Below are positions 450-60,493 of a DNA stretch of 64,000 nucleotides, piece after piece; the first letter of the stretch is position 1; each line of letters starts with the position of its first letter. The position numbers were made by a program, and so were the translations under genes. The DNA lies in the NCBI GenBank assembly GCA_944376495.1, contig CALWCW010000066.1:3299-67298 (forward strand). Reading direction: 5' to 3'. The notes beneath the pieces are model-generated. The model ran no database searches and was not told the DNA's origin. It was given only the letters and a program-made list of their open reading frames with translations. This DNA comes from an uncultured Clostridia bacterium (GTDB lineage: Bacteria; Bacillota; Clostridia; Christensenellales; UBA1242).

Positions 450-2219
450 ATGGTTATTGAAGAGATTGAAAAACTTTTAAATGAGGCTGGGAACAAAGCG
501 GGCTATAAAGACAATTTAGCCGTTTCATTTTCTAGCATACCTGAACTTTGTGACTATCAATGCAATGACGCCTTTTCTCTTGCTAAAAAATATGGTAAAA
601 ATCCCTTTAATATTGCTCAAGAAATTGTTGACAATATAGAAAAGAATGATTTTTTTGAATTTGAAGTTGTTCGTCCAGCCTTTATAAATGTGAAGTTGAC
701 AGATAAAAAACTGGGACAAGTTGCAAACTATTGTTTAAGCGATGAAATGGGCGGAGTTCAAAAACATAAAGTAAGTCAACGTATTGTTTTAGATTATGGT
801 GGAGCAAATGTCGCAAAATCACTTCATGCTGGTCATTTACGTTCTCCTATTATTGGCGAAAGCCTTAAAAGACTATATAAATTTTTAGGAGATGAAGTTA
901 TTGCAGACGTTCATCTTGGAGATTGGGGACTTCAGATGGGACTTACCGAACTTCAACTTTACTATGATGGGGTCCTTGATTATTATTTTAAAAATAAGGG
1001 GGGCATGCCAAGCATAACTCTTGAAATGCTGAACGAAGCCTATCCTAAAGCAAGTGCAAGAAAAGATAGTGACGAAGAATTTAAGAAAGAAGCTGACACT
1101 TGGACTTTAAAAATTCAAAATAAAGAAGAGCCTTACTACGAAATCTATAAAAAGATGAGAGAGGTTTCTGTTAAAGAAATTAAAAGACAGTATGGTGAAC
1201 TAGGAGCAACATTTGATTTATGGCTTGGTGAGAGTGATGCGGAGGGCTATATTGATAAAGCCATAAAAATTATTGAGGACAAAGGACTTGCAAAAATAAG
1301 TAATGATGCTCTTGTGGTTGAAGTTGCACAAGAAGGAGAAAATATTCCTATTACAAATGAAAACGGCGAAGTGATTAGATTTAAAAACCCAATGCCACCT
1401 GCAATGCTAAAAAAATATAATGGGGCTTCACTCTATGCGACCACTGATATTGCAACAATTCTTATGAGAAATGAAACCCTCGGAAAGATTGATAGAATTG
1501 AGTATATCACCGACCAAAGACAGAAAATGCACTTTACGCAGGTTTTTCGAGTTTGCAAAATGGCAGGCATTTCTCCAGAAAATCAACAACTATTGCATAT
1601 GAGTTATGGGACAATGAATGGAAAAGATGGCAAACCTTTTAAAACACGCTCTGGCGACACTGTAAAACTTGACGACATTATTAATCTTTTGATTGAACGT
1701 GCCAGTGAAAAGTTGAAAGCAAATAATGTGGAACAGTCAAGAGAAACTGCACTTATGATTGGTGTTGCAGCAATGAAGTTTGGTGATTTATCAAACAGCA
1801 TAAGCAAAGATTATGTTTTTGATTTAGATAGATTTTTATCTTTTGAAGGAAAAACAGGACCATATCTTCAATACACAACAGTCCGTATTAATTCTATCTT
1901 AAACAAAATTAAGGAAAGCGGTTGGGAAGGAAGTAACGAATTTTTAATTTCCTCGATTGAAGAGCGACAGATTATTAAATATATCTTAAAATTAATATCG
2001 GCTTACGAAATTTGCTATAAAGAAAAATCCTTAAATACCCTCTGCACAGCTGTTTATGAACTTGCAAGCAACTTTTCAACTTTTTATAATAATCATAATG
2101 TTATAAACGAAAAAGATTATAAAGTAAAATCAAGCTATGTTCTACTTTTAAAACTCGTTCGGAAGGAAATCGTAAACGCACTTTACGTGCTTGGAATTGA
2201 AATTCCTAAAAAAATGTAA
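450..2219 (+). CDS. argS: Arginine--tRNA ligase
   Basis: 589-aa ORF with SD AAGGAG upstream. Class I HIGH-type motif (SLHAGHLRS), KMSK-like region (FKTRSGDTVKL) and anticodon-binding C-terminus. Confidence 0.93.
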   Translation: MVIEEIEKLLNEAGNKAGYKDNLAVSFSSIPELCDYQCNDAFSLAKKYGKNPFNIAQEIVDNIEKNDFFEFEVVRPAFINVKLTDKKLGQVANYCLSDEMGGVQKHKVSQRIVLDYGGANVAKSLHAGHLRSPIIGESLKRLYKFLGDEVIADVHLGDWGLQMGLTELQLYYDGVLDYYFKNKGGMPSITLEMLNEAYPKASARKDSDEEFKKEADTWTLKIQNKEEPYYEIYKKMREVSVKEIKRQYGELGATFDLWLGESDAEGYIDKAIKIIEDKGLAKISNDALVVEVAQEGENIPITNENGEVIRFKNPMPPAMLKKYNGASLYATTDIATILMRNETLGKIDRIEYITDQRQKMHFTQVFRVCKMAGISPENQQLLHMSYGTMNGKDGKPFKTRSGDTVKLDDIINLLIERASEKLKANNVEQSRETALMIGVAAMKFGDLSNSISKDYVFDLDRFLSFEGKTGPYLQYTTVRINSILNKIKESGWEGSNEFLISSIEERQIIKYILKLISAYEICYKEKSLNTLCTAVYELASNFSTFYNNHNVINEKDYKVKSSYVLLLKLVRKEIVNALYVLGIEIPKKM

Positions 2220-2239
2220 AAAAAATTTTAAAAAGGGTA

Positions 2240-2268
2240 TTTACAATTTGAAAAAAATATGCTATTAT
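2240..2268 (+). promoter_or_regulatory. Sigma-A-type promoter TTTACA-17-TATTAT for the 56-aa ORF
   Basis: -35 at 2240-2245, 17-nt spacer, -10 at 2263-2268. GGAGG SD at 2284-2288. Confidence 0.55.
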
Positions 2269-2291
2269 AAAGTAAAGTTAATGGAGGACTT

Positions 2292-2462
2292 ATGAGTAAT
2301 GAAATTAAACCAAGAATAAAATCTGAACAAATTTTAAAATATTATGATGCCCTTTTGGCAGGTAGAATAGTCGCAAGAAAAAGTGACCTCGAAAAAAATT
2401 TAATTAAAGCAAAAGCACAAACATCAAATCATATTGATGATGAAATGTCTATGGGAATGTAA
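2292..2462 (+). CDS. Small hypothetical protein (56 aa), below the ORF-track length cutoff
   Basis: ATG at 2292 lies 3 nt after GGAGG. It has its own promoter and is followed by a T-run. Sequence MSNEIKPRIKSEQILKYYDALLAGRIVARKSDLEKNLIKAKAQTSNHIDDEMSMGM. Confidence 0.5.
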   Translation: MSNEIKPRIKSEQILKYYDALLAGRIVARKSDLEKNLIKAKAQTSNHIDDEMSMGM

Positions 2463-2600
2463 AAGGAAGTTTTATGCTTTCTTTTTTTATTATAAATTAA
2501 AATATTGACAATTTTAATGTTTTCTTTTGTGTATATTTTAGTTTATTTTATTAAATAAATTACAATTATCTAAAAATATCTATTATTTTATAAATTACAT

Positions 2601-2676
2601 CTAGGAAGCAAAAATTTTGACAAGTCAAAATTTGGGTTTGCTATCGCAAACAGCACATGAATGTGCGGCTTCCTAG
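2601..2676. repeat. Cloverleaf-like nested-palindrome element, copy 1 (possible structured RNA)
   Basis: Closing stem CTAGGAAGC/GCTTCCTAG encloses three hairpins: AAATTTTGAC-aa-GTCAAAATTT, GTTTGC-tatc-GCAAAC and GCACA-tgaa-TGTGC. Followed by TTGTTTTTTT. Confidence 0.7.
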
Positions 2677-2783
2677 TTGTTTTTTTAAAGCTCTATATAA
2701 AAATAACACAATAAAATAAAGTTAACTAATATATTATAATCAAGAACCTTAAATTTTTTTGATTTTGATTCGGTACAAGACAA

Positions 2784-2812
2784 TTGACATTGTCAAACAA
2801 GTATGTTATAAT
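2784..2812 (+). promoter_or_regulatory. Consensus promoter TTGACA-17-TATAAT, 8 nt before the ATG (leaderless architecture)
   Basis: -35 at 2784-2789, embedded in the palindrome TTGACA-T-TGTCAA. -10 at 2807-2812. No SD in 2813-2820 (TTTTTTAT). Confidence 0.7.
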
Positions 2813-2820
2813 TTTTTTAT

Positions 2821-4557
2821 ATGGAGCAAACATTAGAAAAGTTTAAATCTCATTTGTTTAAAGTCTGTGAGGATGATTGCCTTCGTAAACTTGCACTTGA
2901 TTTTTATGAAGATTTTAGTAAGTTCTATAAGGGGCAAGTTTTTGTGCGTGAAAATTTTGAAACAATTGAGATTGATGGGGAAATTTATGAACAGGATATA
3001 GTAAAAGATTTATTTGCTGATAAAGACGAGGTTACGGCGGAAGAAATTTTCACTTATAATTTTATTAACTTTGTTGAAAAATTGGAGTTCTTTGAGAAAC
3101 AAAACCATGTTGCTGGGGTTGTTAATGCAATCAAAAAACGTATTTTATTATATAAACCAAATTCTAAACAATTTTTTAATTATATTGTTGATAAGACAAA
3201 AGACACTCCTCCTTTATTTTCAATATTTTCAGAGAGCAAATTAAATAAAGGTGTAGAACTTTCTAAAAATCAAATTGCTGAATATAAAGCAATAGCAAAA
3301 AAATATGATATTGACATGGAAGCACAAATTCAAGCGTTACGCAAGAATCCTGAAAAAATTATTAAAGAAACTTTTTATCATGAGTTTTGTCATCTATTTG
3401 AAGTGAGAAAATTTAAAAATGGCAAGTATTTAAAAAATAACATGTCCAGTAGAATAGTCGAATTAAAAAATAAGAGAAGAAAAAAATGTATGTCAGGAGT
3501 GACATCTATTGATGAAAATTTGAAAGTTAAAGAAAAATTTATTAAAGATAATGCTTGTCTTATAGGCTCAAATGCGTTATCTGAAATTTTGAATGAAGAA
3601 CTAAATCAAAATGTTTTAAGAAGATTTTCAACAAAAGATGTTTCTGGCCTATATCAATCTACCGCTTCAAAAAAACAGATGAATAGTGGGTCAACTTATA
3701 GAATTAATTATGATTTTGCAACATTGTTTAAATGTGTAATTTTTGATGAAGATATGAAAAACTTGAGATTTAATGCAAGTCATATGATTAAATGTTTTAA
3801 TCAATTTCAAATAAGTGAAGAACTTTTGTCAAAATGTATAGAAGATATAAAAACAAATCTAATAAATATTAATTATGATATTTATTTTCGAGTTCAAAAT
3901 GTTTTAGATAATTTGAAAAGTGGCAAAAATACTAGTTTTGAAATTATTAATATTTTATCTGGTGTTTTCGAAAATGCAAAAAATATGGATGATACTTTTG
4001 TCTTTTATACCAAACTTTCACCTTATTTAATCGAATTTAAAGAAAATATTCAAGCTTTATATATGGATGTCATAAAATCTTCAGTCATTCAAAAGTTAAA
4101 TGATGACCAGTTTGTTAAAGATGATGAATTTTACAAACAACTTAATCAAACTTTGGAAAACATAGATAATTTTCTTATTTATCCCGTTGAAAATATTGAA
4201 GAAAATTACTTTGATGAAAATGGAAAGAAAGAACGGAAAAATCATTCTTCTTTGAATTTATATTCGCTTGATAAATGTGTTGAAAAATTTAAAAACAAAC
4301 TTGAAAATCATAAACAAATAAAAATTTTCCATGAATTATTTCATTTGATTAAACAACATGTTGAAAATTTGCCAGATGAAGAGAGGGAGAGGGTATTATC
4401 TCATTTGACTTTCTTTGAAAAACAAGATTCTATAGATAAAAAATATGATGCTCTTCAACTATTTTTAACATTTGATGAAATTTATAATGAAAGGTCCTTT
4501 CATTTATCGCAACAAACAAACAGGCAATTAGATGATAGCGAAAAGGATTTATTTTAA
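2821..4557 (+). CDS. Hypothetical 578-aa protein with a single HExxH (zincin-like) motif
   Basis: Long uninterrupted ORF. Motif ETFYHEFCHLFEV near residue 187. No signal peptide or TM segment. K/N/E-rich and helical-looking. Confidence 0.75.
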   Translation: MEQTLEKFKSHLFKVCEDDCLRKLALDFYEDFSKFYKGQVFVRENFETIEIDGEIYEQDIVKDLFADKDEVTAEEIFTYNFINFVEKLEFFEKQNHVAGVVNAIKKRILLYKPNSKQFFNYIVDKTKDTPPLFSIFSESKLNKGVELSKNQIAEYKAIAKKYDIDMEAQIQALRKNPEKIIKETFYHEFCHLFEVRKFKNGKYLKNNMSSRIVELKNKRRKKCMSGVTSIDENLKVKEKFIKDNACLIGSNALSEILNEELNQNVLRRFSTKDVSGLYQSTASKKQMNSGSTYRINYDFATLFKCVIFDEDMKNLRFNASHMIKCFNQFQISEELLSKCIEDIKTNLININYDIYFRVQNVLDNLKSGKNTSFEIINILSGVFENAKNMDDTFVFYTKLSPYLIEFKENIQALYMDVIKSSVIQKLNDDQFVKDDEFYKQLNQTLENIDNFLIYPVENIEENYFDENGKKERKNHSSLNLYSLDKCVEKFKNKLENHKQIKIFHELFHLIKQHVENLPDEERERVLSHLTFFEKQDSIDKKYDALQLFLTFDEIYNERSFHLSQQTNRQLDDSEKDLF

Positions 4558-4593
4558 AATTTGTTTTTTACAAATTGATAATAAAGAGGCGTT

Positions 4594-4809
4594 ATGAGAA
4601 TTAAAAAGGATTTAAAAGAATTTTTACCTTGGAATAAAGGGAAATTTAAAAAGGTAGAAACAATGCTTGCAAAAGAATTTAGCGGACAGGAAAATTTGAT
4701 TGGGAAATCAAGTATTTATTGGGCACGTAAAAAGAAACTTCTTAAAGAACTTTACAACATTGACTGGAAAACTCCTCAAGAGTTAAATCCAGATACAATT
4801 TTTGATTAA
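4594..4809 (+). CDS. Hypothetical 71-aa basic protein
   Basis: SD AAAGAGG lies 5 nt upstream. Sits 36 nt after the 578-aa gene and is followed by a terminator. Confidence 0.55.
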   Translation: MRIKKDLKEFLPWNKGKFKKVETMLAKEFSGQENLIGKSSIYWARKKKLLKELYNIDWKTPQELNPDTIFD

Positions 4810-4817
4810 GCAAAGTG

Positions 4818-4850
4818 AGCACATCAATTTTTTCGGTGTGCTTTTATTTT
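4818..4850 (+). terminator. Rho-independent terminator
   Basis: AGCACATC / GGTGTGCT 8-bp stem (one G-U pair) followed by TTTTATTTT. Confidence 0.6.
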
Positions 4851-4922
4851 ATTGAAAAAATTTTAAAATTTGTTTTGTGTTTTAGAATTAAAAATATATA
4901 ATATATTTGTTAGGAGTTTAAA

Positions 4923-5642
4923 ATGTTTCTTAATTATATTTTACCGCTTATTATTAGCATCATATTTATTGTCCTTTTTGTGACTATCTGCACAATAAAA
5001 CTCAAAAATGCTCCAGAAAGCAAAAAACTTGTTCCTGTGCAGGTGGTATTTTGGGTTTTAGTTGCTTTAGAATTTGCAAAAATTTTCTATTTGATAGCTC
5101 AAAATGGTTCATATCAGCCAAGTCGTTATCCAATTGTTTTTTGTTCGCTGGTTTTCTTCGCATATCCTCTTTTTTGTTTTAAAAAGAACAGATTTTCAGA
5201 GGTGGCAAAAGGATTTTCAGTTATTCCTGCTATGATTATATTCGTTTTGTTCGTTGCGATTCAATGGCAGTTTAATATGTCGTTAATTCAGGGACATAGT
5301 TATTTGTTCCATGCGGCAATGCTTGCAGTTTCAATCTACTTATTGACGGCAAAAATCTACAAATTTGAGTTTAAGAAATTCTATTCGTTATTTCTAGTCT
5401 TGTCAGGTTATATTGTTTTTTCAACAGTTTTAAGTTTATTCATTGGCGGAGATATTTCTTATTTTGGACCTAATAGCTCTTATCTTGGAATAATCTACAA
5501 TAATTTTGGTTATGCGGTTGGCAACTTGCTTGTTATTATGCTGTTCTTTGTGCTTTGTTTTGCGGTTTATGGAATTATTGGGCTATGCCAACGGAAAAAG
5601 AAAAAAGTTGTAACGAATGAAAGTGGGGAGGTGAAACAATGA
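4923..5642 (+). CDS. Polytopic integral membrane protein (hypothetical)
   Basis: SD AGGAG. About 7 hydrophobic segments. Stop overlaps the next start (ATGA). Confidence 0.75.
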   Translation: MFLNYILPLIISIIFIVLFVTICTIKLKNAPESKKLVPVQVVFWVLVALEFAKIFYLIAQNGSYQPSRYPIVFCSLVFFAYPLFCFKKNRFSEVAKGFSVIPAMIIFVLFVAIQWQFNMSLIQGHSYLFHAAMLAVSIYLLTAKIYKFEFKKFYSLFLVLSGYIVFSTVLSLFIGGDISYFGPNSSYLGIIYNNFGYAVGNLLVIMLFFVLCFAVYGIIGLCQRKKKKVVTNESGEVKQ

Positions 5643-6427
5643 TTTTTGATATTTTAGCATTACTACTTGTATGTATTTTCTTCCCTGTTATTGTTTATTC
5701 GGGAATTAAAATTTATAAACCAAAAAGCTATAAAGGATTAATTATTGGATTATCAATCGCATTCTTATGTATGGAATTATTAAGATTTTTCTACAATGCA
5801 AGCTTGTATGACGGAGGTGTAACTCCAGCCGACGATATTAAATATTCATTCATTACCATACTTGTAATTGTCTGTATGTTTGCAACATTTAGTTCAGGAA
5901 AAGTAAGAAAGTTAAGTAGAGGTTTATTTTGCCTAACAAGTTTAATCCCTGTTGTTCTGGCAATAACGAACTCTAGCATTTATACAAATGTTTTAGATAC
6001 TTATGCTGTGACAAAGGCTTTATATTTTTTAGAAGCAGGTATTGTTTTGACAATTGCGTTGCTATATGTAATTCAAGATAAAACGGAGTTCTCTCCATGG
6101 CAAATTCTTTGGTCAATTATTCTATTTGTAATTTTTGTTGGACTAGACCTTCTTGTCATTTTCTTCTGGAGAACAGAAGCGATTATAGATACTACTTGGT
6201 ATATTGGAATGGCGGTTTCTGTTGTGACAATTCCTCTTGTTTATGGAGTAAACGTGCTTGTAAATAAGTTAATCAAAAAGAAATCGGAGCAAGTTGTAAA
6301 TGGTCAAGCAGAAAAAGAGTTGAGTGCTGATGCAGAAAGAATTGAAGAAGATATGCCCGCTAACTCTAATAATAATGAAGAAGAGATTATAAAACAAGAA
6401 GAGAATATAGAAAAAGAAAAAAAATAA
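5639..6427 (+). CDS. Polytopic integral membrane protein (hypothetical) with acidic/K-rich C-terminal tail
   Basis: Translationally coupled to the previous gene. About 7 hydrophobic segments. Tail EEDMPANSNNNEEEIIKQEENIEKEKK. Confidence 0.75.
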   Translation: MIFDILALLLVCIFFPVIVYSGIKIYKPKSYKGLIIGLSIAFLCMELLRFFYNASLYDGGVTPADDIKYSFITILVIVCMFATFSSGKVRKLSRGLFCLTSLIPVVLAITNSSIYTNVLDTYAVTKALYFLEAGIVLTIALLYVIQDKTEFSPWQILWSIILFVIFVGLDLLVIFFWRTEAIIDTTWYIGMAVSVVTIPLVYGVNVLVNKLIKKKSEQVVNGQAEKELSADAERIEEDMPANSNNNEEEIIKQEENIEKEKK

Positions 6428-6637: not shown

Positions 6638-7903
6638 ATGGACAAAAAGAGATGTTATTTTGTAATAGACATGAAATCATTTTTTGCATCTGTTGAATGT
6701 GCCGAGCGCAGTCTTGACCCAATGACTACAAAACTTGTAGTTGCTGACCAGTCTAGAACAGAAGCCACTATTTGTCTTGCAGTTTCACCAGCATTAAAGG
6801 CTTTAGGTATTAAAAATAGATGCAGACTTTTTGAAATTCCAAAGAATATAGAGTATATTGTTGCTCCTCCAAGAATGAAAAAATATATTGAATATGCGGC
6901 AGACATTTATGCAATTTATCTAAAATACATTGACAAAAACGATATTCATACTTACTCAATTGACGAGTCAATTATAGATGTCACTGATTATTTAAAATTA
7001 TATCAAATTAGGGCTAAAGATTTCGCAAAAAAACTTATGAATGAAATTTATGAAACATTGCATATTCCCTCAAGTGCTGGAATTGGAACAAATATGTATC
7101 TCGCTAAAATAGCCCTTGACCTTACAGCTAAACACTCTCCCGACAGAATTGGTTGGCTTACAGAAGAAAAATTTATAAAAACTCTTTGGAATCATAAACC
7201 GCTTACTGATTTTTGGCAAATTTCAAGTGGAATATCATCAAGGCTTGCAAAATATGGAATATTTGACATGGAGGGCATTGCAAAGGCAAATGAAGATATT
7301 TTATATAAAGAGTTTGGAATTAATGCCGAACTTTTAATTGATCATGCGTGGGGAAAAGAAAGTTGTTTGATGAGTGATATAAAATCATATAAAGGAAAAT
7401 CAAAATCAATTTCTTCATCTCAAATTTTACCAGAAAACTATGACTTTGAAAACGCAAAACTTGTTATGCGTGAAATGATTCAAAATGGATGCTATCAACT
7501 TTTCAGACAGGGTTACGTTACATCGCTTTTACATCTTTTTATAGGCTATGGTGATGATAGGTCGCAAGCAAAAGGTAGCATTAGAATGCCAGTTACAACA
7601 AATCTTTTTTCTTTTATTGTCAAATATATGGAAAAACTTTTTGACGACATAGTAGATAAGAAAAAACCAATTAGAAAAATTGGCTACGACTTTGCAGAAC
7701 TTAAAACTTCCGAATATGAGCAATATGATTTATTTACAGACCTTAAGGAAATAGAAAAAGAAAAGCAACTTGTCACAAGTATTTTAGAAATACAAGATAA
7801 ATATGGGAAAAATTTTATATTGAAAGGAGAAGATTTGACAGAAAAAGCAACTCAACGTGAAAGAAATTCACAAATAGGAGGACATAAAAGTGGAGAGAAT
7901 TAA
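6638..7903 (+). CDS. Y-family (translesion) DNA polymerase, UvrX/DinB-like
   Basis: N-terminal motif YFVIDMKSFFASVECAERSLDP (D-x-x-x-F-[FY]-A-x-x-E) and overall IMS-family layout. 421 aa. Confidence 0.85.
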   Translation: MDKKRCYFVIDMKSFFASVECAERSLDPMTTKLVVADQSRTEATICLAVSPALKALGIKNRCRLFEIPKNIEYIVAPPRMKKYIEYAADIYAIYLKYIDKNDIHTYSIDESIIDVTDYLKLYQIRAKDFAKKLMNEIYETLHIPSSAGIGTNMYLAKIALDLTAKHSPDRIGWLTEEKFIKTLWNHKPLTDFWQISSGISSRLAKYGIFDMEGIAKANEDILYKEFGINAELLIDHAWGKESCLMSDIKSYKGKSKSISSSQILPENYDFENAKLVMREMIQNGCYQLFRQGYVTSLLHLFIGYGDDRSQAKGSIRMPVTTNLFSFIVKYMEKLFDDIVDKKKPIRKIGYDFAELKTSEYEQYDLFTDLKEIEKEKQLVTSILEIQDKYGKNFILKGEDLTEKATQRERNSQIGGHKSGEN

Positions 7904-7904
7904 A

Positions 7905-8231
7905 ATGCCAAGAAGTGAAAGAGCAAAACAATTTGCTCCTTTTGATGCCTTAAAAGGCTTGCATGATGCCTTAAGGCTTAAAGAGTATGAACACGATGCA
8001 GTTCAAAAAGGAGAGATAAGCGAGGAAGAGGCTTTGAAGATTTCAAATACATTGTCTCAAATAAAAAGGGGAGATATTGTTCAAGTGAAATATTATTCAG
8101 ATGGTCACTATCATGACGTAAAAGGAAGATGCGAACTACTTTTGGATGAAAATATTTTGAAATTAGATAAAATAAATATTCCTATAATGGAAATACTTGA
8201 TATTATGTTAATGAAAAATCAACAAGATTAA
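7905..8231 (+). CDS. YolD-like protein (accessory partner of Y-family polymerases in Firmicutes)
   Basis: Motif RAKQFAPFDALKGL. Sits immediately downstream of the polymerase, as in uvrX-yolD pairs. An alternative GTG start at 7890 lies 8 nt after AGGAGG. Confidence 0.7.
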   Translation: MPRSERAKQFAPFDALKGLHDALRLKEYEHDAVQKGEISEEEALKISNTLSQIKRGDIVQVKYYSDGHYHDVKGRCELLLDENILKLDKINIPIMEILDIMLMKNQQD

Positions 8232-10562: not shown

Positions 10563-11483
10563 TTAGTCAAATCGCAATCCTTTTAAAACGGGTTGACGCA
10601 TCCCTCCATCTTTTGTCAACATCATATATTGCACAGTGCAGATTAGATTGGGATTTATCCATATAATGTCCTTATCTTTTAATTGCTCAAATAGTGGTTT
10701 CTTAATTTTATTTATACTAGCAAAGTCTAGTAGTAAGTTTTTTTCTTCTTTTGACATAGTTGCATTTACATTTCCTCTATATTGAAGATTTCCTTGTTTG
10801 TCAAAATCGCCTAAAATTAAATCTTTTATTTTTCCATTGTCATCCAATTTGAATCCGCATACTATAAAATCTTCGTCAAGAAGATTTTTTATTTTTATCC
10901 AATTTTTACTCCGCTTTCCTAGTTCATAAACGGAATCTTTTTTCTTGGCAACAATTCCTTCCAAATTTAATTTTTTTGTTTGATTAAAAAGTTCAATTCC
11001 TTTTTCTTCAATATAACGACTTATGCTCAAAAGTTCGTTTTCTTTAATAGTCTTTTTTAATAATTCTTTTCTTTCAAGCAATGGCTTATTTATGAGTTCT
11101 CTATCTTTTAAAAATAATATGTCGTAAGCAACAAAATGAACTTTTGTTTTTTCGCTTTCAATTTCGATTCGAAATTTATCTGTTAAAAGGCTTCGTTTTT
11201 GTAAGGCAAAAAAATCGGGTGTACCGTTTTTGCTTATAACAACCAGTTCACCATCAATTATACACTTCTCTTTAGCTTGCTTGTGAATATTGTTGAGTTC
11301 GGGATAAACAGAAGTGACGTCTTTATTTCTTTTGTTACGCAAAATGGTTTTATCATTATCTAAATATGCAACGCATCTTATACCATCAAGTTTAAGTTCG
11401 TAAATATAATCTTTGTCATTAAAGGGGAGTTTTTCACTTTCAAGAAGCATCGGTGAAATATTTTTCTTATCAAACAAATTCAT
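10563..11483 (-). CDS. ligD: ATP-dependent DNA ligase (LigD ligase domain only)
   Basis: Adenylation motif YELKLDGIRCVAY (KxDG). 306 aa with no polymerase or nuclease domain. Start lies 1 nt after the ku stop. Confidence 0.85.
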   Translation of the reverse strand: MNLFDKKNISPMLLESEKLPFNDKDYIYELKLDGIRCVAYLDNDKTILRNKRNKDVTSVYPELNNIHKQAKEKCIIDGELVVISKNGTPDFFALQKRSLLTDKFRIEIESEKTKVHFVAYDILFLKDRELINKPLLERKELLKKTIKENELLSISRYIEEKGIELFNQTKKLNLEGIVAKKKDSVYELGKRSKNWIKIKNLLDEDFIVCGFKLDDNGKIKDLILGDFDKQGNLQYRGNVNATMSKEEKNLLLDFASINKIKKPLFEQLKDKDIIWINPNLICTVQYMMLTKDGGMRQPVLKGLRFD

Positions 11484-11484
11484 C

Positions 11485-12276
11485 TTATGCCTTCTTTTTT
11501 ATTTTGACAACTTTATCAAGATTTTGAACCGAAGCCTGTAAAGCATCCATAAGGTCAGTGATTTTAATCGTTTTGTCATCATCAACTTGTTTTATTTGTT
11601 TTCCTTTTGCTTTATCTTTAATAGCCTGTTTGACACGAGCGTTATATTCATCTTTGTAATCAGCGGGGTTAAAATTTCCGCTCATACCTTTTATAATCTC
11701 TTTTGCTAAAGTAACCTCTTGCTTTGAAATATCTTGCTTGATTTCACCTGTTGGACTATGTTGAACTTCTTCATCAAAAAATAATTTGCTTAATAAAAGG
11801 TTGTCATCTCGCACCCAAAGAGCAATTACGCATTCGCTAGACCCTAGCATAGTTTTTGCAATTCCAACTTTATTTTCCTTTTTTAAAACTTCCTTTAAAA
11901 GATAGAAGGCTTTTTCAGCACCCTTACTCTCTGGAACAACATAGTAAGTTTTGTCATAATAAATAGGATTGATTTCTTCAAGCGATACAAATTTGTCAAT
12001 AATAATATTTTTATCTTTTTTGCTTTTAAGCCTTTCAAGTTCTTCATCTTCAAATATAACATATTGCCCTTTTTCTATCTCATATGCTTTCACAATATCT
12101 TCATTTTTTAAAACTTTGTCATTACAATCAACGCAAGTTTTCTTGTATTGGACTCTTGATTTTGTTTTTTTATCAAGCATATTAAATCCTATATCATTGT
12201 TCTTAATGGTATTGTGAAGGGTTATAGGAATATAAACAAGCCCAAAGCCTATTGAAGTCTTGTAACTATAAGCCAT
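11485..12276 (-). CDS. ku: Non-homologous end-joining protein Ku
   Basis: N-terminus MAYSYKTSIGFGLVYIPITLH is typical of bacterial Ku. SD AAAGGAG precedes the ATG at 12276, so the track start 12312 is rejected. Confidence 0.85.
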   Translation of the reverse strand: MAYSYKTSIGFGLVYIPITLHNTIKNNDIGFNMLDKKTKSRVQYKKTCVDCNDKVLKNEDIVKAYEIEKGQYVIFEDEELERLKSKKDKNIIIDKFVSLEEINPIYYDKTYYVVPESKGAEKAFYLLKEVLKKENKVGIAKTMLGSSECVIALWVRDDNLLLSKLFFDEEVQHSPTGEIKQDISKQEVTLAKEIIKGMSGNFNPADYKDEYNARVKQAIKDKAKGKQIKQVDDDKTIKITDLMDALQASVQNLDKVVKIKKKA

Positions 12277-12312
12277 AAAAATCTCCTTTATTTTAGTATG
12301 TCGTTTTAACAA

Positions 12313-17207: not shown

Positions 17208-18128
17208 TTAATTTACTAAAAATCCTTGAATTATATAATCTTCTGCTTCTTTTTGTGTTAACCCTAATGTCATGAGTTTTATAAGTTCATCTCCTGCAAT
17301 CTTTCCTATTGCGGCTTCGTGAACTAATGAGGCATTATTGTCAATCGCATCAATTTTTGGAATAGAAATAATTCTTGCTTTGTCTAGTAAAATTCCATCA
17401 CATTCAACATGACCAAAACATTCATTTTTACCAATGAGGTCTGACTTAAATTCTTGATAAGAGTTGTCTTTTGCAACGCTATGGCTTACAACCTCCACCG
17501 AAGAATGTTCTCCTATTAAATCAACTTTGAATTGAGTTTTGGCTGTTTGATTTTCTGTAGTTAAAATATTTTCATGTATGATTAATTTCGCCTTATCTTC
17601 AAGTTTTGCGTATGTTTTTCTTAAAGAGAGAGTGACTCCGCTAAGTTGAGAGGTTTCAAGTTCCATCACGCTATTTTCTTTTTGATAAATTCTAGTCACA
17701 GGATTTAAAATCTTTCCTCCGCTTCCTTCTCCCTCTCCAATATGTCTTTCAATATATTTAACTTTGCTATTTTTCCCAATATGAAAACTATGAATGCCAT
17801 TATGCGAACTTGTATTACACGTTTTATTATGGATTCCGCAACCTGCAACGATTACAACGTCACAATTTTCGCCAATATAAAAGTCATTATAAACTAAATC
17901 ATTAAGTCCACCAACGGTTATAATAACAGGAATATGAATACTTTTGTTTTTAACATTTGGATGAACAATTATATCTATTCCGCTTTTATTCTTTTTGGGA
18001 ACAATATCTATATCTTTAGTTGATTGTCTTTCCACTGCTTGTCCATTTTTACGCAAGTTGAATGCTCCGCTTGGGATAGAGTGTAGGTCGGCAATTTTTT
18101 CAAGTAATTTTTTCTCTATATTATTCAT
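17208..18128 (-). CDS. SufB/SufD-family Fe-S cluster assembly protein
   Basis: Beta-helix-type repeats and C-terminal ...ASLVHEAAIGKIAGDELIKLMTLGLTQKEAEDYIIQGF. ATG at 18128 preceded by GAGGTG. Overlaps the sufC stop by 8 nt. Confidence 0.75.
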   Translation of the reverse strand: MNNIEKKLLEKIADLHSIPSGAFNLRKNGQAVERQSTKDIDIVPKKNKSGIDIIVHPNVKNKSIHIPVIITVGGLNDLVYNDFYIGENCDVVIVAGCGIHNKTCNTSSHNGIHSFHIGKNSKVKYIERHIGEGEGSGGKILNPVTRIYQKENSVMELETSQLSGVTLSLRKTYAKLEDKAKLIIHENILTTENQTAKTQFKVDLIGEHSSVEVVSHSVAKDNSYQEFKSDLIGKNECFGHVECDGILLDKARIISIPKIDAIDNNASLVHEAAIGKIAGDELIKLMTLGLTQKEAEDYIIQGFLVN

Positions 18129-18825
18129 TTTCACCTCGCAATCTTCCGCATTTGTCATTTTCTAGCATTGGTGCTATATCATTTAGTTTTCCTTGTGCTA
18201 ATATCTCTCCATTCTTCAATAAGATTATTTCATCGGCAATTTCTAATATTTTTTTCTGATGACTTACAATAATATTCGTTGCGTTTTTTAGTGACGAAAA
18301 AATTTTGATAAGATTGTCAAAACTCCATAGGTCAATCCCAGCCTCTGGTTCGTCAAAAATATTTAGTTTTGCATTTCTAGCAATAGCCATTGCAAGTTCT
18401 ATTCTCTTAAGTTCTCCGCCTGAAAGTTTGTCGTCAATAGGGCGGTCAAGATAGTCTTTTGCACATAACCCAACAGTTGATAAAAAATCACAATGATTAT
18501 TGAGTTTATTTTTTTCACCGCTTGCAAGGTCTAAAAGTTCTCTTACTTTTATGCCTTTAAATGTAACAGGTTGTTGAAAAGCATAACTTATGCCTTTTCT
18601 TGCTCTTTCATCAATCGTTAGGGCTGTCAAATCCTCATTATCAAAAAAGATTTCTCCACTTGTTTGTTTTAAAATGCCCATTATGATTTTAACAAGTGTA
18701 GATTTACCACTGCCATTAGGCCCAGTTATAACATATATTTTTTCGTCTTCAAATTTTAGATTTATATCTTTTAAAATGTCATTATTCTCTTTGACACTAT
18801 AACTTAATTTTTTTATTTCTAACAT
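18121..18825 (-). CDS. sufC: Fe-S cluster assembly ATPase SufC-like (ABC ATPase)
   Basis: Walker A GPNGSGKST, signature LSGGELKR, Walker B NIFDEPEAGID. Paired with a SufB/D-family gene. Confidence 0.75.
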   Translation of the reverse strand: MLEIKKLSYSVKENNDILKDINLKFEDEKIYVITGPNGSGKSTLVKIIMGILKQTSGEIFFDNEDLTALTIDERARKGISYAFQQPVTFKGIKVRELLDLASGEKNKLNNHCDFLSTVGLCAKDYLDRPIDDKLSGGELKRIELAMAIARNAKLNIFDEPEAGIDLWSFDNLIKIFSSLKNATNIIVSHQKKILEIADEIILLKNGEILAQGKLNDIAPMLENDKCGRLRGENE

Positions 18826-25192: not shown

Positions 25193-25398
25193 ATTAAGAC
25201 GTTGAGAAAGTAAGTAGTTTTATTATAAGCTTTCAGAGAGACAGTGGTTGGTGAAAACTGTTAAGTTTTATAAAATGAAAGACAACTTTTGAGTTTTAAA
25301 AATATTTTCTTAATGAGTGGTCATTTTGACAAATTAGGTGGCACCGCGGATAAAAATTATTCGTCCTAATGCAAATATTTTTGCGTTAGGACTTTTTG
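25193..25398 (+). promoter_or_regulatory. T-box leader (tRNA-sensing riboswitch), specifier GAC (Asp)
   Basis: AGAGA box (25235-25240 region). Specifier-loop context GAAAGACAA with GAC at 25281-25283. T-box sequence AAATTAGGTGGCACCGCGG at 25331-25349. Terminator GTCCTAATGCAA/TTGCGTTAGGAC plus TTTTT at 25363-25397. Confidence 0.85.
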
Positions 25399-25484
25399 TT
25401 TACATTAATTAAATTATCAAATTTTGATTTTTGTCAATAAAAAATCCTAAAAGTAAAACAAAATTTGATATAAAGGAGAAAAAT

Positions 25485-27218
25485 ATGATTTTTGAAAATG
25501 AATATAGGACTATTGATTGTGGTAGTTTAAGAATTTCAGATGTTGGAAGCACTCAAAGGCTTGCTGGTTTTGTTGATACCATAAGAAAATTAGGTGGAAT
25601 TACATTTGGAGTTTTAAGAGATTTCTATGGCAAGACGCAAATTATTTTGCCTGAAAATTTAGATTTAGAATTAAATCGAGAAGACGTTGTCACTGTTTCT
25701 GGGCAAGTTCGAGAACGTTCAAGCAAAAATCCAGCAATGGCAACTGGCGATATAGAACTTGTTGTTGAAAGTATTGAAATTTTAGGCAAATGCGAACATG
25801 TCCTTCCTTTTGAAATTAAAACGAGTGAAAGTGTTAATGAAGACTTAAGACTTAAGTATAGATATTTAGATTTAAGAGCCGATTACAATAAGGAGATGTT
25901 AAAATTACGAAGTGACTTAATGCACTATGTTCGCAATTTTATGCACGATTTGGGATTTTTGGAAGTTCAAACTCCAATTTTGACCGCATCAAGTCCAGAG
26001 GGGGCAAGGGATTTCCTGGTTCCTTCAAGATTAAATAAAGGCAAATTTTATGCACTTCCTCAAGCACCTCAACAATTTAAACAACTTCTTATGACAAGCG
26101 GGGTTGATAAATACTTTCAAATAGCACCTTGCTTCAGAGATGAAGATGCAAGAGCCGACCGCTCTCCAACAGAATTTTATCAAATAGATATGGAAATGGC
26201 ATTTGCAACTCAAGAAGAAGTTTTTAAGGTTGTTGAACAATTGTATGCTGGAATTTTCGAAAAGTTTGCTGGCAAAAGACCTGCAACACCATTTAAACGT
26301 TTGACTTTCGAGGAAGCGATGAGAGATTATTGCTCTGATAAACCAGATATGAGAAATCCTTTAAAAGTTAGTGATGTAACAGACATATTTGCAAATTCAT
26401 CTTTCAATGCGTTTAAAGATAATGTTATAAAAGCAATTAAAGTTGATTGCAAAGATAAAGGCAGAAAATTCTATGATAGTTTGACAGAATTTTTAAAATC
26501 AAGAGAAGCAAAAGGGCTTGCCTATGTTCGTGTCAATGAGGCAGGCGAGTTTGAAACTGGAATTTCAAAATTCATAACAGATGATGAAAAGAAACTTTTG
26601 AAAGAGCGAATGGAATACAAAGAAGGCGAAACAATTTTCTTTGTCGCAGATGAAAAAGACAGGGTCATAAAATTTGCAGACCTTTTAAGACAAGAACTTG
26701 GAAAACGACTTGAACTTATTGATTTGGATGATTATAGTTTTGTTTGGATTGTCGATTTTCCTTTCTATGAACTTGATGATGAAGGAAACATTTGTTTTTC
26801 ACATAATCCTTTCAGTTTACCACAAGAAAGCATTGAAGAGGTTAAGAAAAATCCTCTTTCTGCCAAAGCATATCAATATGACCTTGTCATAAATGGCTAT
26901 GAAAGTTTATCTGGTGCTGTTAGAAATCATAGACCAGACTACATGGTAGAACTATTTAAAATTGCAGGGTATGATAAATCAGTGGTAGAAAATAAATTCC
27001 CAGCACTTTATAATGCCTTCTCTTATGGTGCACCTCCACACTGCGGAATGGGTGCGGGATTTGATAGGCTTATGATGCTTCTTACTCACAATGAGTTTAT
27101 AAGAGATGTCATAGCTTTCCCTATGAACAAAAATGGTTGCGACCCACTCACAAATGCACCAAATGTTGTTGATGAAAAACTATTAAGAGATGTTCATATA
27201 AAATTGATTGATGATTAA
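25485..27218 (+). CDS. aspS: Aspartate--tRNA ligase
   Basis: ATG at 25485 after AAAGGAG. Bacterial-length class IIb enzyme with OB-fold N-terminus, motif 2 FRDEDARADR and motif 3 GAGFDRL. Confidence 0.93.
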   Translation: MIFENEYRTIDCGSLRISDVGSTQRLAGFVDTIRKLGGITFGVLRDFYGKTQIILPENLDLELNREDVVTVSGQVRERSSKNPAMATGDIELVVESIEILGKCEHVLPFEIKTSESVNEDLRLKYRYLDLRADYNKEMLKLRSDLMHYVRNFMHDLGFLEVQTPILTASSPEGARDFLVPSRLNKGKFYALPQAPQQFKQLLMTSGVDKYFQIAPCFRDEDARADRSPTEFYQIDMEMAFATQEEVFKVVEQLYAGIFEKFAGKRPATPFKRLTFEEAMRDYCSDKPDMRNPLKVSDVTDIFANSSFNAFKDNVIKAIKVDCKDKGRKFYDSLTEFLKSREAKGLAYVRVNEAGEFETGISKFITDDEKKLLKERMEYKEGETIFFVADEKDRVIKFADLLRQELGKRLELIDLDDYSFVWIVDFPFYELDDEGNICFSHNPFSLPQESIEEVKKNPLSAKAYQYDLVINGYESLSGAVRNHRPDYMVELFKIAGYDKSVVENKFPALYNAFSYGAPPHCGMGAGFDRLMMLLTHNEFIRDVIAFPMNKNGCDPLTNAPNVVDEKLLRDVHIKLIDD

Positions 27219-32364: not shown

Positions 32365-32454
32365 GGGTGAGAAAATCAAATTTTGAACTTTGTTCAAAAT
32401 TTTAATAATGCTGACGCATTATTGCGTGCGTGGAAGCACGCGATTTTCTCACCC
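32365..32454. repeat. Cloverleaf-like nested-palindrome element, copy 2 (possible 5' leader structure of tilS)
   Basis: Closing stem GGGTGAGAAAATC/GATTTTCTCACCC (13 bp) encloses AAATTTTGAAC-ttt-GTTCAAAATTT, AATAATGC-tgac-GCATTATT and GCGTGC-gtggaa-GCACGC. Confidence 0.7.
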
Positions 32455-34216: not shown

Positions 34217-34300
34217 GCGGAAGTGGCGAAATGGCAGACGCGCAAGTTTCAGGTGCTTGTGAGTAAAATCATGTGGGTTCGACTCCCATCTTCCGCACCA
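34217..34300 (+). tRNA. tRNA-Leu (anticodon CAG), type II with long variable arm, CCA encoded
   Basis: Acceptor GCGGAAG/CTTCCGC. Anticodon stem CAAGT/GCTTG with loop TTCAGGT. Variable arm TGAGTAAAATCATGT. T-arm GTGGG-TTCGACT-CCCAT. 3' ACCA. Confidence 0.9.
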
Positions 34301-60403: not shown

Positions 60404-60493
60404 GGGCTAGGAAGCATTTTGAACTTCGTTCAAAATAGAAAAGGCTTTGCTTTTTCTGCCTTAAACTTTAAGTTTAAGGCAGCTTCCTAGCCC
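60404..60493. repeat. Cloverleaf-like nested-palindrome element, copy 3
   Basis: Closing stem GGGCTAGGAAGC/GCTTCCTAGCCC (12 bp) encloses ATTTTGAAC-ttc-GTTCAAAAT, AGAAAAGG-ctttg-CTTTTTCT and GCCTTAAAC-tttaa-GTTTAAGGC. Confidence 0.7.

What the first reader, a model, noticed from the sequence alone, without database searches (positions are those of the whole stretch)
2240..4850. Self-contained uncharacterised cassette: 56-aa protein, cloverleaf element, leaderless 578-aa HExxH protein, 71-aa basic protein
Between argS and a pair of membrane-protein genes lies a module with its own signals. These are a promoter, SD and 56-aa ORF (2292-2462); element copy 1; a perfect consensus promoter whose -35 box is half of the palindrome TTGACA-T-TGTCAA (2784-2796, a possible operator); a 578-aa ORF whose only recognisable feature is one HExxH motif (YHEFCHLFE); a 71-aa basic ORF; and a terminator. 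The large protein has no signal peptide or TM segment. A large cytoplasmic zincin-like protein with small partners is the kind of layout seen in toxin-immunity, anti-phage or effector cassettes. I cannot assign it to any described system, so that reading is speculation.
Basis: partly seen in the sequence, partly recalled or inferred. Interest (0 to 1): 0.55.

Follow-up and report, generated by a model that had tools for sequence, protein, structure and literature searches.

The report
Orphan HExxH enzyme with conserved small partner
The region holds a real two-gene operon found only in uncultured low-GC Clostridia: a large soluble protein with an invariant metal-binding HExxH motif and no known relatives, plus a tiny, very conserved partner protein. 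The neighbouring 56-aa gene and the cloverleaf are local extras, and nothing supports a toxin or anti-phage role.

Summary
Only two of them form a conserved unit: the 578-aa ORF (2821-4557) and the 71-aa ORF (4594-4809).

- **Large protein.** It belongs to a sparse family, about 59 clusters at 50% identity among 1.84 billion representatives. H187, E188, H191, G249, E255 and Y293 are invariant. It has no Pfam, NCBIfam, PHROG, PADLOC or PDB match. Confident AlphaFold models (pLDDT 86) have no Foldseek neighbour.
- **Pairing.** In all 9 species-level loci examined, a 69-71-aa homologue lies next to the large gene, often with overlapping stop and start codons. In one MAG the small gene is upstream of three tandem large paralogues. 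The small protein is always the more conserved (58% against 34% mean identity).
- **Small protein family.** It carries a widespread, unannotated C-terminal mini-domain, WxxPxELNPxxx[FY][DE]-COOH. Elsewhere this domain sits beside an unrelated HExxH protein, sits in an Hsp70/kinase-AAA operon, or is fused to a Kunitz domain.
- **Not part of the module.** The 56-aa ORF is species-specific. The cloverleaf is a dispersed repeat with three copies in the window. Leaderless initiation is a habit of this genome, not of the family.
- **Context.** Neighbours are housekeeping genes, and there are no phage, plasmid or defence hits.

Best reading: a new metallohydrolase, probably a gluzincin-like protease, with a dedicated regulatory small subunit. 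The toxin-immunity reading is unsupported.

The parts
2821..4557 (+). Large subunit gene. It encodes a 578-aa soluble acidic protein, the founding member here of an unannotated HExxH family. Residues 1-310 form the N-terminal domain that carries the motif. Residues 311-578 form an all-helical C-terminal domain ending in an acidic/aromatic tail (..EKDLF).
   Evidence: ORF. Family of 59 representatives. Invariant residues. AF2 models with pLDDT 86.6 and 86.3. No Pfam, NCBIfam, PHROG, PADLOC, PDB or Foldseek match.
3379..3393 (+). Codons for H187-E188-F-C-H191, the invariant HExxH. It lies inside predicted helix 177-194.
3583..3585 (+). Codon for E255, invariant within the SEIxNE motif in predicted helix 235-265. 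It is the candidate third metal ligand (inferred).
3697..3699 (+). Codon for Y293, invariant. It is a candidate catalytic or transition-state residue (inferred).
4594..4809 (+). Small subunit gene. It encodes a 71-aa basic protein (pI 9.7) with the C-terminal mini-domain YWARKKKLLKELYNIDWKTPQELNPDTIFD-COOH. An AAGAGG Shine-Dalgarno sequence lies at 4584-4589.
2784..2812 (+). Promoter of the operon: TTGACA-17-(TG)TATAAT, 12/12 matches. The ATG at 2821 lies 8 nt after the -10 box and has no Shine-Dalgarno sequence, so the mRNA is probably leaderless (inferred). The -35 box is half of the palindrome 2784-2796.
4812..4850 (+). Modest terminator-like hairpin with a U-rich tail after the small gene.
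   Evidence: -12.1 kcal/mol, z -2.4. Not called by the consensus scan.
2292..2462 (+). 56-aa ORF with its own Shine-Dalgarno sequence and a promoter-like site (2240-2268). It is species-specific and not part of the conserved module. Whether it is a real gene is unresolved.
   Evidence: identical on 52 contigs of one species; no homologue in any other locus.
2601..2676 (.). Cloverleaf element copy 1: a 9-bp outer stem plus three hairpins, then a T-run. It is one of three copies in the window and is not cassette-specific.
   Evidence: No Rfam match.

Best explanation
The conserved unit is a bicistronic operon, 2784-4850. It encodes a two-component cytoplasmic metallohydrolase restricted to a lineage of uncultured low-GC Clostridia.

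**Large subunit.** The 578-aa subunit carries a gluzincin-like active site made of H187, E188, H191, E255 and Y293. The site sits in a ~310-residue N-terminal domain, which is followed by a helical C-terminal domain.

**Small subunit.** The 71-aa subunit is made in fixed proportion through operon linkage and, in most species, translational coupling. It binds the large subunit as a regulatory, targeting or inhibitory partner. Its strictly C-terminal, invariant-length tail ...WKTPxELNPxxx[FY][DE]-COOH is the likely docking determinant. That tail may occupy the active-site cleft or a dedicated pocket.

**Expression.** In this species the operon is driven by a perfect sigma-70-type promoter and is probably translated from a leaderless mRNA.

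**Shown:** the gene pair, its conservation, its adjacency in both gene orders, the invariant residues, the relative evolutionary rates, the absence of known homologues or fold neighbours, and the housekeeping context.

**Inferred:** metal binding, peptidase chemistry, physical interaction, the role of the C-terminal tail, and leaderless initiation.

The biological role is unknown. I lean towards a lineage-specific regulatory or quality-control protease rather than a weapon.
For: - **Real family.** Full HMMER over 1.84 billion representatives gives 59 hits, 46 of them at E<=1e-10, mostly 500-650 aa.
- **Invariant residues.** H187, E188, H191, G249, E255 and Y293 are invariant in 43 sequences with 21% mean column identity, and again in 45 sequences.
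- **Helix placement.** AF2 puts HExxH in helix 177-194 and E255 in the next long helix, 235-265, after an N-terminal beta-sheet. This is the element order of gluzincins.
- **Weak family hits point one way.** Four of the sub-threshold Pfam hits, each from a single family member, are to HExxH metallopeptidase families: SprT-like, WLM, PhageMetallopep and Peptidase_M48. They sit among 31 otherwise unrelated one-member hits.
- **Adjacency.** The small gene is adjacent in 9 of 9 species-level loci: the window, L003, L005-L009, L106 and L108. The stop and start codons overlap in five of them (ATGA in four, a 10-nt overlap in L005), and gaps are 2-36 nt in the three others where the small gene follows the large one.
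- **Adjacency survives reordering.** In L003 the small gene lies upstream of three tandem paralogues.
- **Relative rates.** The small protein is more conserved than the large one in 28 of 28 comparisons, 58% against 34%.
- **C-terminal tail.** 118 of 120 small-family proteins end exactly 5 residues after WxxPxxLNP, and 117 end in [FY][DE].
- **Second HExxH partner.** A more distant small-family member sits immediately upstream of an unrelated 659-aa HELLH...EEG protein.
- **Protease-inhibitor fusion.** Some secreted family members fuse the mini-domain to a Kunitz/BPTI protease-inhibitor domain.
- **Complementary charge.** pI is 5.9 for the large protein and 9.7 for the small one.
- **Context.** Neighbours are housekeeping genes and there are no mobile-element, phage or plasmid links.
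Against: - No known zincin appears among the Foldseek hits for either the full-length model or the 1-310 domain model. The best E-values are 0.4 and 1.3, and there are no BFVD hits. The zincin fold is therefore not demonstrated.
- I could not inspect model coordinates, so I could not check that H187, H191 and E255 come together in space.
- HExxH proteins are not always hydrolases. Alpha-KG-dependent HExxH hydroxylases exist (PMC12636437).
- Physical interaction between the two proteins is untested.
- Other small-family members are standalone (L024), lie next to a 316-aa protein without HExxH (L022), or sit in an Hsp70/kinase-AAA operon (L027). The mini-domain is therefore not exclusively a partner of HExxH enzymes.
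- A small partner that is this highly conserved is unusual for a simple protease inhibitor.
Confidence: 0.45

Rival explanations
1. Toxin-immunity, toxin-antitoxin or anti-phage module. The large zincin is a toxic effector held in check by the small protein, which acts as antitoxin, immunity protein or sensor.
For: - The layout is two genes with a small partner.
- The chromosomal position differs between species.
- L003 has a tandem triplication of the large gene.
- The cassette GC (23-27%) is slightly below the window mean of 29%.
- A small-family member (46% identical) lies between an Hsp70-like protein and a fusion of a PD-T4-6-like kinase with an IetA-like AAA ATPase. Both of those families are defence-associated.
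Against: - There are no PADLOC hits for either protein.
- There are no PHROG, phage, plasmid or IMG/VR relatives.
- Neighbours are housekeeping genes, with no integrase, transposase or defence genes.
- The small partner is much more conserved than the large protein. This is the reverse of the rapid co-diversification usual for immunity proteins and antitoxins.
- One small gene sits beside three diverged large paralogues in L003.
- The promoter is an unregulated-looking perfect consensus.
- The small protein has no recognisable DNA-binding antitoxin domain.
Confidence: 0.15
2. Enzyme-substrate pair. The small protein is the substrate or precursor, and the large HExxH enzyme processes or modifies it, either by proteolytic maturation or by alpha-KG/Fe-dependent oxidation as in RiPP pathways.
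For: - A small gene is tightly linked to a large HExxH enzyme in both gene orders.
- The extreme C-terminus of the small protein is conserved.
- There is precedent for non-hydrolytic HExxH enzymes acting on adjacent precursor peptides and recognising a C-terminal tetrapeptide (PMC12636437).
Against: - NCBIfam, which I believe includes the alpha-KG HExxH model TIGR04267 (IPR026337 is the family named in PMC12636437), gave no hit at E<=1.
- No conserved transporter, leader peptidase or other tailoring genes lie nearby.
- The small protein behaves as a folded domain. It is reused as a C-terminal module of many larger proteins, including secreted ones.
- It has no hypervariable core, unlike RiPP precursors.
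Confidence: 0.15
3. The HExxH is a structural or metal-sensing site in a non-catalytic scaffold or regulator. The pair would then be, for example, a chaperone- or translation-associated adaptor complex rather than an enzyme.
For: - There is no fold match to any hydrolase.
- The C-terminal half is all-helical and repeat-like.
- Small-family members occur inside a dnaK operon (between grpE and hrcA, L018) and next to an Hsp70-like gene (L027).
- Several large-gene loci abut tRNA-related genes: argS here, a tRNA-synt_2 gene in L108, and a gene with a PF01171 (ATP_bind_3, the TilS-type domain) hit in L005.
Against: - The invariant set H-E-x-x-H plus E plus Y is the classic catalytic constellation of gluzincins. 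The Glu of HExxH, the general base, is invariant, which a purely structural metal site would not need.
- The chaperone and tRNA neighbourhood links are post hoc and few.
Confidence: 0.1

Closest known systems
Gluzincin metallopeptidases (MEROPS clan MA; minimal zincins such as SprT-like/WLM and the M48 family)
   Same: - HExxH lies within a helix.
- An invariant Glu lies on the following long helix, 64 residues downstream. From my own knowledge, M48-type enzymes have comparably long spacing.
- There is an invariant Tyr.
- A beta-sheet precedes the active-site helix.
- Sub-threshold Pfam hits to SprT-like (E 0.011), WLM, PhageMetallopep and M48 fall around the motif.
   Different: - No family reaches its Pfam cut-off (16 bits against 25.6 for SprT-like).
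- There is no third His as in SprT/WLM (from my own knowledge).
- Foldseek finds no zincin for the full-length model or the domain model.
- The protein is about 580 aa, with a large helical C-terminal domain and a ~65-residue variable insert before the active-site helix.
Bicistronic protease plus small cognate protein operons, e.g. protealysin-emfourin and ImmA/IrrE (M78) with its partner (recalled from knowledge, not tested here)
   Same: A metalloprotease-like gene is tightly linked to a small partner gene in one operon, and the partner is presumed to bind or regulate the enzyme.
   Different: - There is no sequence or profile similarity to M4, M78 or their partners.
- The partner here is not an HTH repressor.
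- The partner is more conserved than the enzyme.
- The partner belongs to a mini-domain family also found alone and fused to other domains.
Alpha-KG-dependent HExxH hydroxylases of RiPP clusters (IPR026337; PflC/PosC/BpmH/ChlH; PMC12636437)
   Same: An HExxH protein is encoded next to a small protein or peptide. In those systems the enzyme recognises a conserved C-terminal motif of the peptide.
   Different: - There is no NCBIfam hit.
- There is no RiPP-type cluster context.
- The small protein is a conserved folded domain, not a precursor with a variable core.
Type II toxin-antitoxin and polymorphic toxin-immunity pairs
   Same: Two-gene architecture with a small second gene, and variable chromosomal location.
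   Different: - There are no matches in PADLOC.
- The conservation pattern is reversed.
- There is no mobile-element context.
- L003 has one small gene for three large paralogues.

Membership tests
Zincin / gluzincin metallopeptidase (clan MA) | HExxH motif on an alpha-helix, conserved across the family | tested here: met
   H187, E188 and H191 are invariant in 43 and in 45 sequences. They lie in predicted helix 177-194.
Zincin / gluzincin metallopeptidase (clan MA) | Third metal ligand (Glu) on a downstream helix packed against the active-site helix | tested here: inconclusive
   E255 is invariant and lies in helix 235-265.
Zincin / gluzincin metallopeptidase (clan MA) | Structural similarity to a solved zincin catalytic domain | tested here: not met
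Zincin / gluzincin metallopeptidase (clan MA) | Significant profile match to a Pfam or MEROPS peptidase family | tested here: not met
   Only sub-threshold hits: SprT-like at E 0.011 (16 bits against a 25.6-bit cut-off), and WLM, M48 and PhageMetallopep in one member each. The profile search against PDB sequences found nothing relevant.
Zincin / gluzincin metallopeptidase (clan MA) | Metal-dependent peptidase activity | not testable with these tools
   Needs biochemistry.
Alpha-KG-dependent HExxH hydroxylases (IPR026337/TIGR04267) | Match to the family model | tested here: not met
   The NCBIfam scan at E<=1 found no family for the 578-aa protein. The family definition is taken from PMC12636437.
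Known anti-phage defence systems (PADLOC-DB v2) | Match of any component to a defence-system protein model | tested here: not met
   0 families for the 578-aa, 71-aa and 56-aa proteins at E<=1.
Toxin-antitoxin / toxin-immunity pair | Association with mobile elements or defence islands, and a fast-evolving small partner matched one-to-one with the toxin | tested here: not met
   Neighbours are housekeeping genes. There are no phage or plasmid hits. The small partner is more conserved than the large protein in 28 of 28 pairs. One small gene sits beside three large paralogues in L003.
Toxin-antitoxin / toxin-immunity pair | Toxicity of the large protein, relieved by the small one | not testable with these tools
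   Needs expression experiments.
Any Rfam RNA family (for the cloverleaf at 2601-2676) | Covariance-model match | tested here: not met
   There was no hit at the gathering threshold in the window. No hit overlapped 2601-2676 at E<=10.

The most novel reading that the evidence does not exclude
The ~40-residue mini-domain ending in WxxPxELNPxxx[FY][DE]-COOH is a previously unrecognised, widespread docking or inhibitory module. It is absent from Pfam and found in loci with G+C from 28% to 68%. Its free C-terminus would plug into otherwise unrelated large enzymes. The evidence for such partners is two non-homologous HExxH families with no PDB fold neighbour for the one modelled, a kinase-AAA defence-like protein, and Kunitz fusions. 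The window's operon would then be the founding example of a new class of small-partner-gated metalloenzymes, possibly a new conflict or stress system in uncultured Clostridia.
Probability: 0.2. Interest if true: 0.7.

Novelty: new variant of a known kind. Interest (0 to 1): 0.45.

Why it matters
If the reading is right, this defines two new protein families.

- **A ~580-aa HExxH...E...Y enzyme.** Its confidently predicted fold has no neighbour in the PDB or in BFVD.
- **A small partner.** It carries a widespread but unannotated C-terminal mini-domain.

Together they would add a new metallohydrolase architecture with a dedicated small subunit. They would also give a functional handle on the mini-domain wherever else it occurs, including in secreted Kunitz fusions and in an Hsp70/kinase-AAA operon.

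The practical value is modest. The hosts are uncultured gut- or environment-associated Clostridia, and there is no sign of a role in defence, virulence or mobile DNA. For genome annotation, the result corrects the idea of a three-gene cassette to a two-gene operon.

Tried and rejected
- **Word-indexed homology searches.** Searches with the 578-aa protein and with its 43-sequence profile returned only the same-species cluster. Low-complexity K/N/I-rich words probably swamped the index. The full HMMER scan was needed.
- **The search for related loci with the 43-sequence alignment.** It failed because no stretch was conserved enough. A 12-sequence alignment found only 2 loci among GTDB species genomes.
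- **Family libraries.** Pfam, NCBIfam, PHROGs and PADLOC gave nothing significant for any of the three proteins.
- **PDB sequence-profile searches.** The large family hit only a spurious ribosomal L19 HExxH-like stretch. The small family hit nothing.
- **Foldseek.** The full-length model against PDB and BFVD, and a separately predicted 1-310 domain model against PDB, gave no meaningful hits.
- **The 659-aa HELLH protein that follows a distant small-family gene.** I tested whether it is a remote homologue of the 578-aa family. hmmsearch and hhalign align only the HExxH motif (one search failed internally).
- **Operator idea for TTGACATTGTCAA.** No recurrence above chance.
- **Cloverleaf as part of the module.** A cloverleaf of the same architecture but unrelated sequence lies about 110 nt upstream of the homologue in L007. 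None was found at the seven other species' loci, so I treat the L007 case as probable coincidence.
- **Contig breaks as evidence of repetitiveness.** Several metagenome contigs start just downstream of the cloverleaf. This could reflect a repeat or poor coverage of a very AT-rich, hairpin-forming stretch, so I did not use it as evidence.
- **Leaderless initiation as a family trait.** Rejected. Four of the five homologues inspected show a Shine-Dalgarno-like sequence and the fifth a transcribed leader. Other genes in this window show the same leaderless-type layout.
- **Mobile-element association.** tblastn against phages and plasmids, and an IMG/VR scan, found no match.


Full report
**Observation**

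The window is 29% G+C. The region reads as follows.

- argS lies at 450-2219, with Pfam tRNA-synt_1d, DALR and N-terminal domain hits.
- A 56-aa ORF lies at 2292-2462. GGAGG sits 4 nt upstream of it, and a TTTACA-17-TATTAT promoter-like site lies at 2240-2268.
- A 360-nt AT-rich spacer follows and contains a cloverleaf at 2601-2676. The cloverleaf has a 9-bp outer stem enclosing three hairpins, folds at -35.4 kcal/mol with z = -6.15, and is followed by a T-run.
- A 12/12 consensus promoter, TTGACA-17-TGnTATAAT, lies at 2784-2812. Its -35 hexamer is half of the exact palindrome TTGACATTGTCAA.
- A 578-aa ORF lies at 2821-4557. Its ATG is 8 nt after the -10 box and has no Shine-Dalgarno sequence.
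- A 71-aa basic ORF lies at 4594-4809 with an AAGAGG Shine-Dalgarno sequence.
- A modest hairpin with a U-tail follows.
- Two membrane-protein genes come next, one of them TMEM164-like.

The terminator is weaker than implied: the consensus scan did not call it. The palindrome is a one-off, with near matches at chance level.

**The large protein**

The word-indexed protein search found only the same-species cluster. A full HMMER scan of 1.84 billion cluster representatives found 59 relatives, 46 of them at E<=1e-10 and most 500-650 aa long.

In an alignment of 43 members with 21% mean column identity, six residues are invariant: H187, E188, H191, G249, E255 and Y293. N258, Q58, D59, E75 and G99 are nearly invariant. 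The HExxH is therefore under strong constraint. Together with a downstream Glu in the SEIxNE motif and a Tyr, it forms the residue set expected of a gluzincin-type active site.

No library places the family.
- Pfam gives only sub-threshold hits around the motif. SprT-like scores E 0.011 for this protein, and WLM, M48 and PhageMetallopep each hit one other member.
- NCBIfam, PHROGs and PADLOC give nothing.
- A profile search of PDB sequences gives nothing relevant.

AlphaFold2 with the family alignment gives a confident model: pLDDT 86.6 and pTM 0.86. The separately modelled N-terminal domain (residues 1-310) scores pLDDT 86.3. HExxH lies in helix 177-194 and E255 in helix 235-265, after an N-terminal beta-sheet. 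This is the element order of gluzincins.

Foldseek nevertheless finds no neighbour at E<=0.001 in the PDB, for either model, or in BFVD. The zincin fold is therefore plausible but not demonstrated. By this test the overall fold is new.

The protein is soluble and acidic, with no TM segment or signal peptide.

**The small protein and the pairing**

At every other locus I could retrieve with a family member, a 69-71-aa homologue of the 71-aa ORF is adjacent. These loci are L005-L009, L106/L107 and L108/L109. The stop and start codons overlap in five of them: ATGA in four, and a 10-nt overlap in L005.

In the MAG locus L003 the small gene lies upstream of three tandem, diverged paralogues of the large gene. 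Adjacency that survives gene reordering argues for a functional link.

The small protein is more conserved than the large one in all 28 pairwise comparisons, at 58% against 34% mean identity.

A profile search with the small proteins found 126 clusters, all unnamed and without Pfam domains. A metagenome scan added 80 loci with G+C from 28% to 68%.

The conserved core is a ~40-residue C-terminal module, G.CH.YW.rKK.LLk..Y.IdWktPAELNP.i.FD. In 118 of 120 proteins the chain ends exactly five residues after WxxPxxLNP, and in 117 it ends in [FY][DE]. The free C-terminus itself therefore looks functionally important.

This module appears in several other settings.
- **Alone.** L024, labelled Epulopiscium sp. 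by a source.
- **Next to a 316-aa protein without HExxH.** L022.
- **Upstream of an unrelated HExxH protein.** A 659-aa HELLH...EEG protein inserted between grpE and hrcA in L018. hmmsearch and hhalign align nothing beyond the motif.
- **In a defence-like operon.** Between an Hsp70-like protein and a fusion of a PD-T4-6-like kinase with an IetA-like AAA ATPase, in L027.
- **Fused to longer proteins.** These include secreted proteins with a Kunitz/BPTI domain.

None of these proteins matches Pfam over the module, the PDB or PHROGs.

**What is not part of the module**

- **The 56-aa ORF.** It is identical on 52 contigs of this one species. It has no homologue in any other locus that carries the pair. 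Whether it is a real gene remains open.
- **The cloverleaf.** It has two more copies in the window, at 32365-32454 and 60404-60493. Both lie in unrelated intergenic regions and share the architecture and a similar first hairpin. A cloverleaf of the same architecture but unrelated, G+C-rich sequence lies about 110 nt upstream of the homologue in L007. None is present at the seven other species' loci. I treat it as a dispersed structured repeat. It may act here as a terminator or insulator after the argS/56-aa unit.
- **The leaderless layout.** Four of the five homologues inspected show a Shine-Dalgarno-like sequence and the fifth a transcribed leader. At least three other genes in this window have TATAAT or TATACT 6-8 nt before an ATG that lacks a Shine-Dalgarno sequence. 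It is a habit of this genome, not a property of the family.

**Context**

Neighbours of the pair differ between species and are ordinary chromosomal genes.
- In this window: recR and argS upstream; a Y-family polymerase with YolD, and Ku with an ATP-dependent DNA ligase, downstream.
- In L005: a gene with a PF01171 (ATP_bind_3, the TilS-type domain) hit.
- In L007: genes with DnaB_2 and IstB_IS21 domain hits.
- In L108: a tRNA-synt_2 gene.
- In L106: NUDIX and NTPase genes.

No integrase, transposase or defence gene is adjacent. There are no tblastn hits in 50,697 phage or 72,556 plasmid records, and none in IMG/VR. The cassette is slightly more AT-rich than its surroundings, which is weak evidence at best.

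Homologues come only from metagenomes and MAGs. Source labels are 'Clostridia bacterium', 'uncultured Clostridia bacterium' and 'uncultured Christensenella sp.'.

**Interpretation**

The best-supported reading is a two-gene operon for a new metallohydrolase, probably a gluzincin-like peptidase, with a dedicated small subunit.

I propose that the small protein binds the large one. Its conserved C-terminal tail may dock in the active-site cleft or in a pocket, acting as a regulator, an inhibitor or a targeting factor. This step is inference. It rests on five observations:
- the obligatory linkage of the two genes;
- the strict C-terminal placement of the motif;
- the recurrence of the module beside a second, unrelated HExxH protein;
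- the Kunitz fusions;
- the complementary charge of the two proteins.

**Rivals**

- **Toxin-immunity or defence.** The evidence against is the reversed conservation pattern, the one-small-to-three-large arrangement in L003, the housekeeping context and the lack of any defence, phage or plasmid signal. The L027 operon and the paralogue expansion keep it alive at low probability.
- **Enzyme-substrate (RiPP-like) pair.** Alpha-KG-dependent HExxH enzymes provide a precedent (PMC12636437). Against it are the lack of a family match, the lack of cluster context, and the domain-like behaviour of the small protein.
- **Non-catalytic scaffold.** This is hard to square with the invariant general-base Glu.

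**Verdict**

It is a lineage-restricted chromosomal operon of unknown role, not a demonstrable conflict cassette.

Interest is moderate (0.45). The most interesting thread is the widespread, unannotated C-terminal mini-domain and its possible role as a docking or gating element for large enzymes.

Noticed in passing
window 2601-2676, 32365-32454, 60404-60493; L007 7798-7892: These are dispersed 'cloverleaf' elements. Each has an outer stem of 9-12 bp enclosing three tight hairpins with 3-6-nt loops and junctions of 0-2 nt. All are intergenic. Three of the four are more G+C-rich than the surrounding AT-rich DNA. The sequences are largely unrelated except for a first hairpin of the type (A)TTTTGA(A)C...G(T)TCAAAA(T). 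Both strands fold equally well. A T-run follows on the + strand for copy 1 and on the - strand for copy 3. There is no Rfam match. The same architecture occurs in a second species (L007) with a different sequence. They could be a REP/MITE-like structured repeat or a family of complex terminators.
   Followed up: partly
L003 3993-9797 (uncultured Clostridia MAG CALEWH010000004.1): One small-partner gene (3993-4277) is followed by three tandem, diverged paralogues of the large HExxH protein (591, 638 and 598 aa). All three end in ...DSNGADRI or ...DDGADRL.
   Followed up: partly
L018/L019/L020/L021, L045, L049 (small gene 6001-6243 and 659-aa gene 6258-8237 in L018): An 80-aa member of the small-protein family and an unrelated 659-aa HELLH...EEG protein are inserted, in the opposite orientation, between grpE and hrcA of the dnaK operon.
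   Followed up: partly
L027-L029 (human-gut contigs), genes 1189-3723, 3956-4216, 4230-6014: This operon encodes an 844-aa Hsp70-like protein, an 86-aa small-family protein, and a 594-aa fusion of a PD-T4-6-like Ser/Thr kinase with an IetA-like AAA ATPase. It looks like an undescribed defence or conflict system that uses the same mini-domain.
   Followed up: partly
L035, L044 and similar high-GC metagenome loci: These secreted proteins combine a signal peptide, a Kunitz/BPTI domain (Pfam E 3e-10) and the C-terminal WxxPAELNPxxxFD mini-domain.
   Followed up: partly
window 18121-18825(-), 38937-40973(+), 59353-60330(-): Other genes have TATAAT or TATACT 6-8 nt upstream of an ATG that lacks a Shine-Dalgarno sequence. 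Leaderless mRNAs therefore seem to be common in this genome.
   Followed up: no
C-termini of the large proteins (window 4540-4554; L007, L008 and others): Many family members end in a short acidic-plus-aromatic tail after a long C-terminal helix: ..EKDLF, ..REDLF, ..VEDIF, ..EDDIW, ..YGEWE. The significance is unknown.
   Followed up: no
window 25193-25371 and 34217-34297: A T-box leader (Rfam, 102.7 bits) lies upstream of the ORF at 25431-27218. There is one tRNA gene.
   Followed up: no
window 6638-8231 and 10563-12312: A Y-family polymerase (IMS) is followed by a YolD-like gene. Nearby are an ATP-dependent DNA ligase (DNA_ligase_A_M/A_C domains) and Ku, a non-homologous end-joining pair. 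The domain assignments are read from the same-species contig L001.
   Followed up: no
L001, L002, L016, L017 (same species): Four independent metagenome contigs begin 106-128 nt upstream of the 578-aa gene, just downstream of the cloverleaf. This could be an assembly break at a repeat, or a coverage drop in very AT-rich, hairpin-forming DNA.
   Followed up: no
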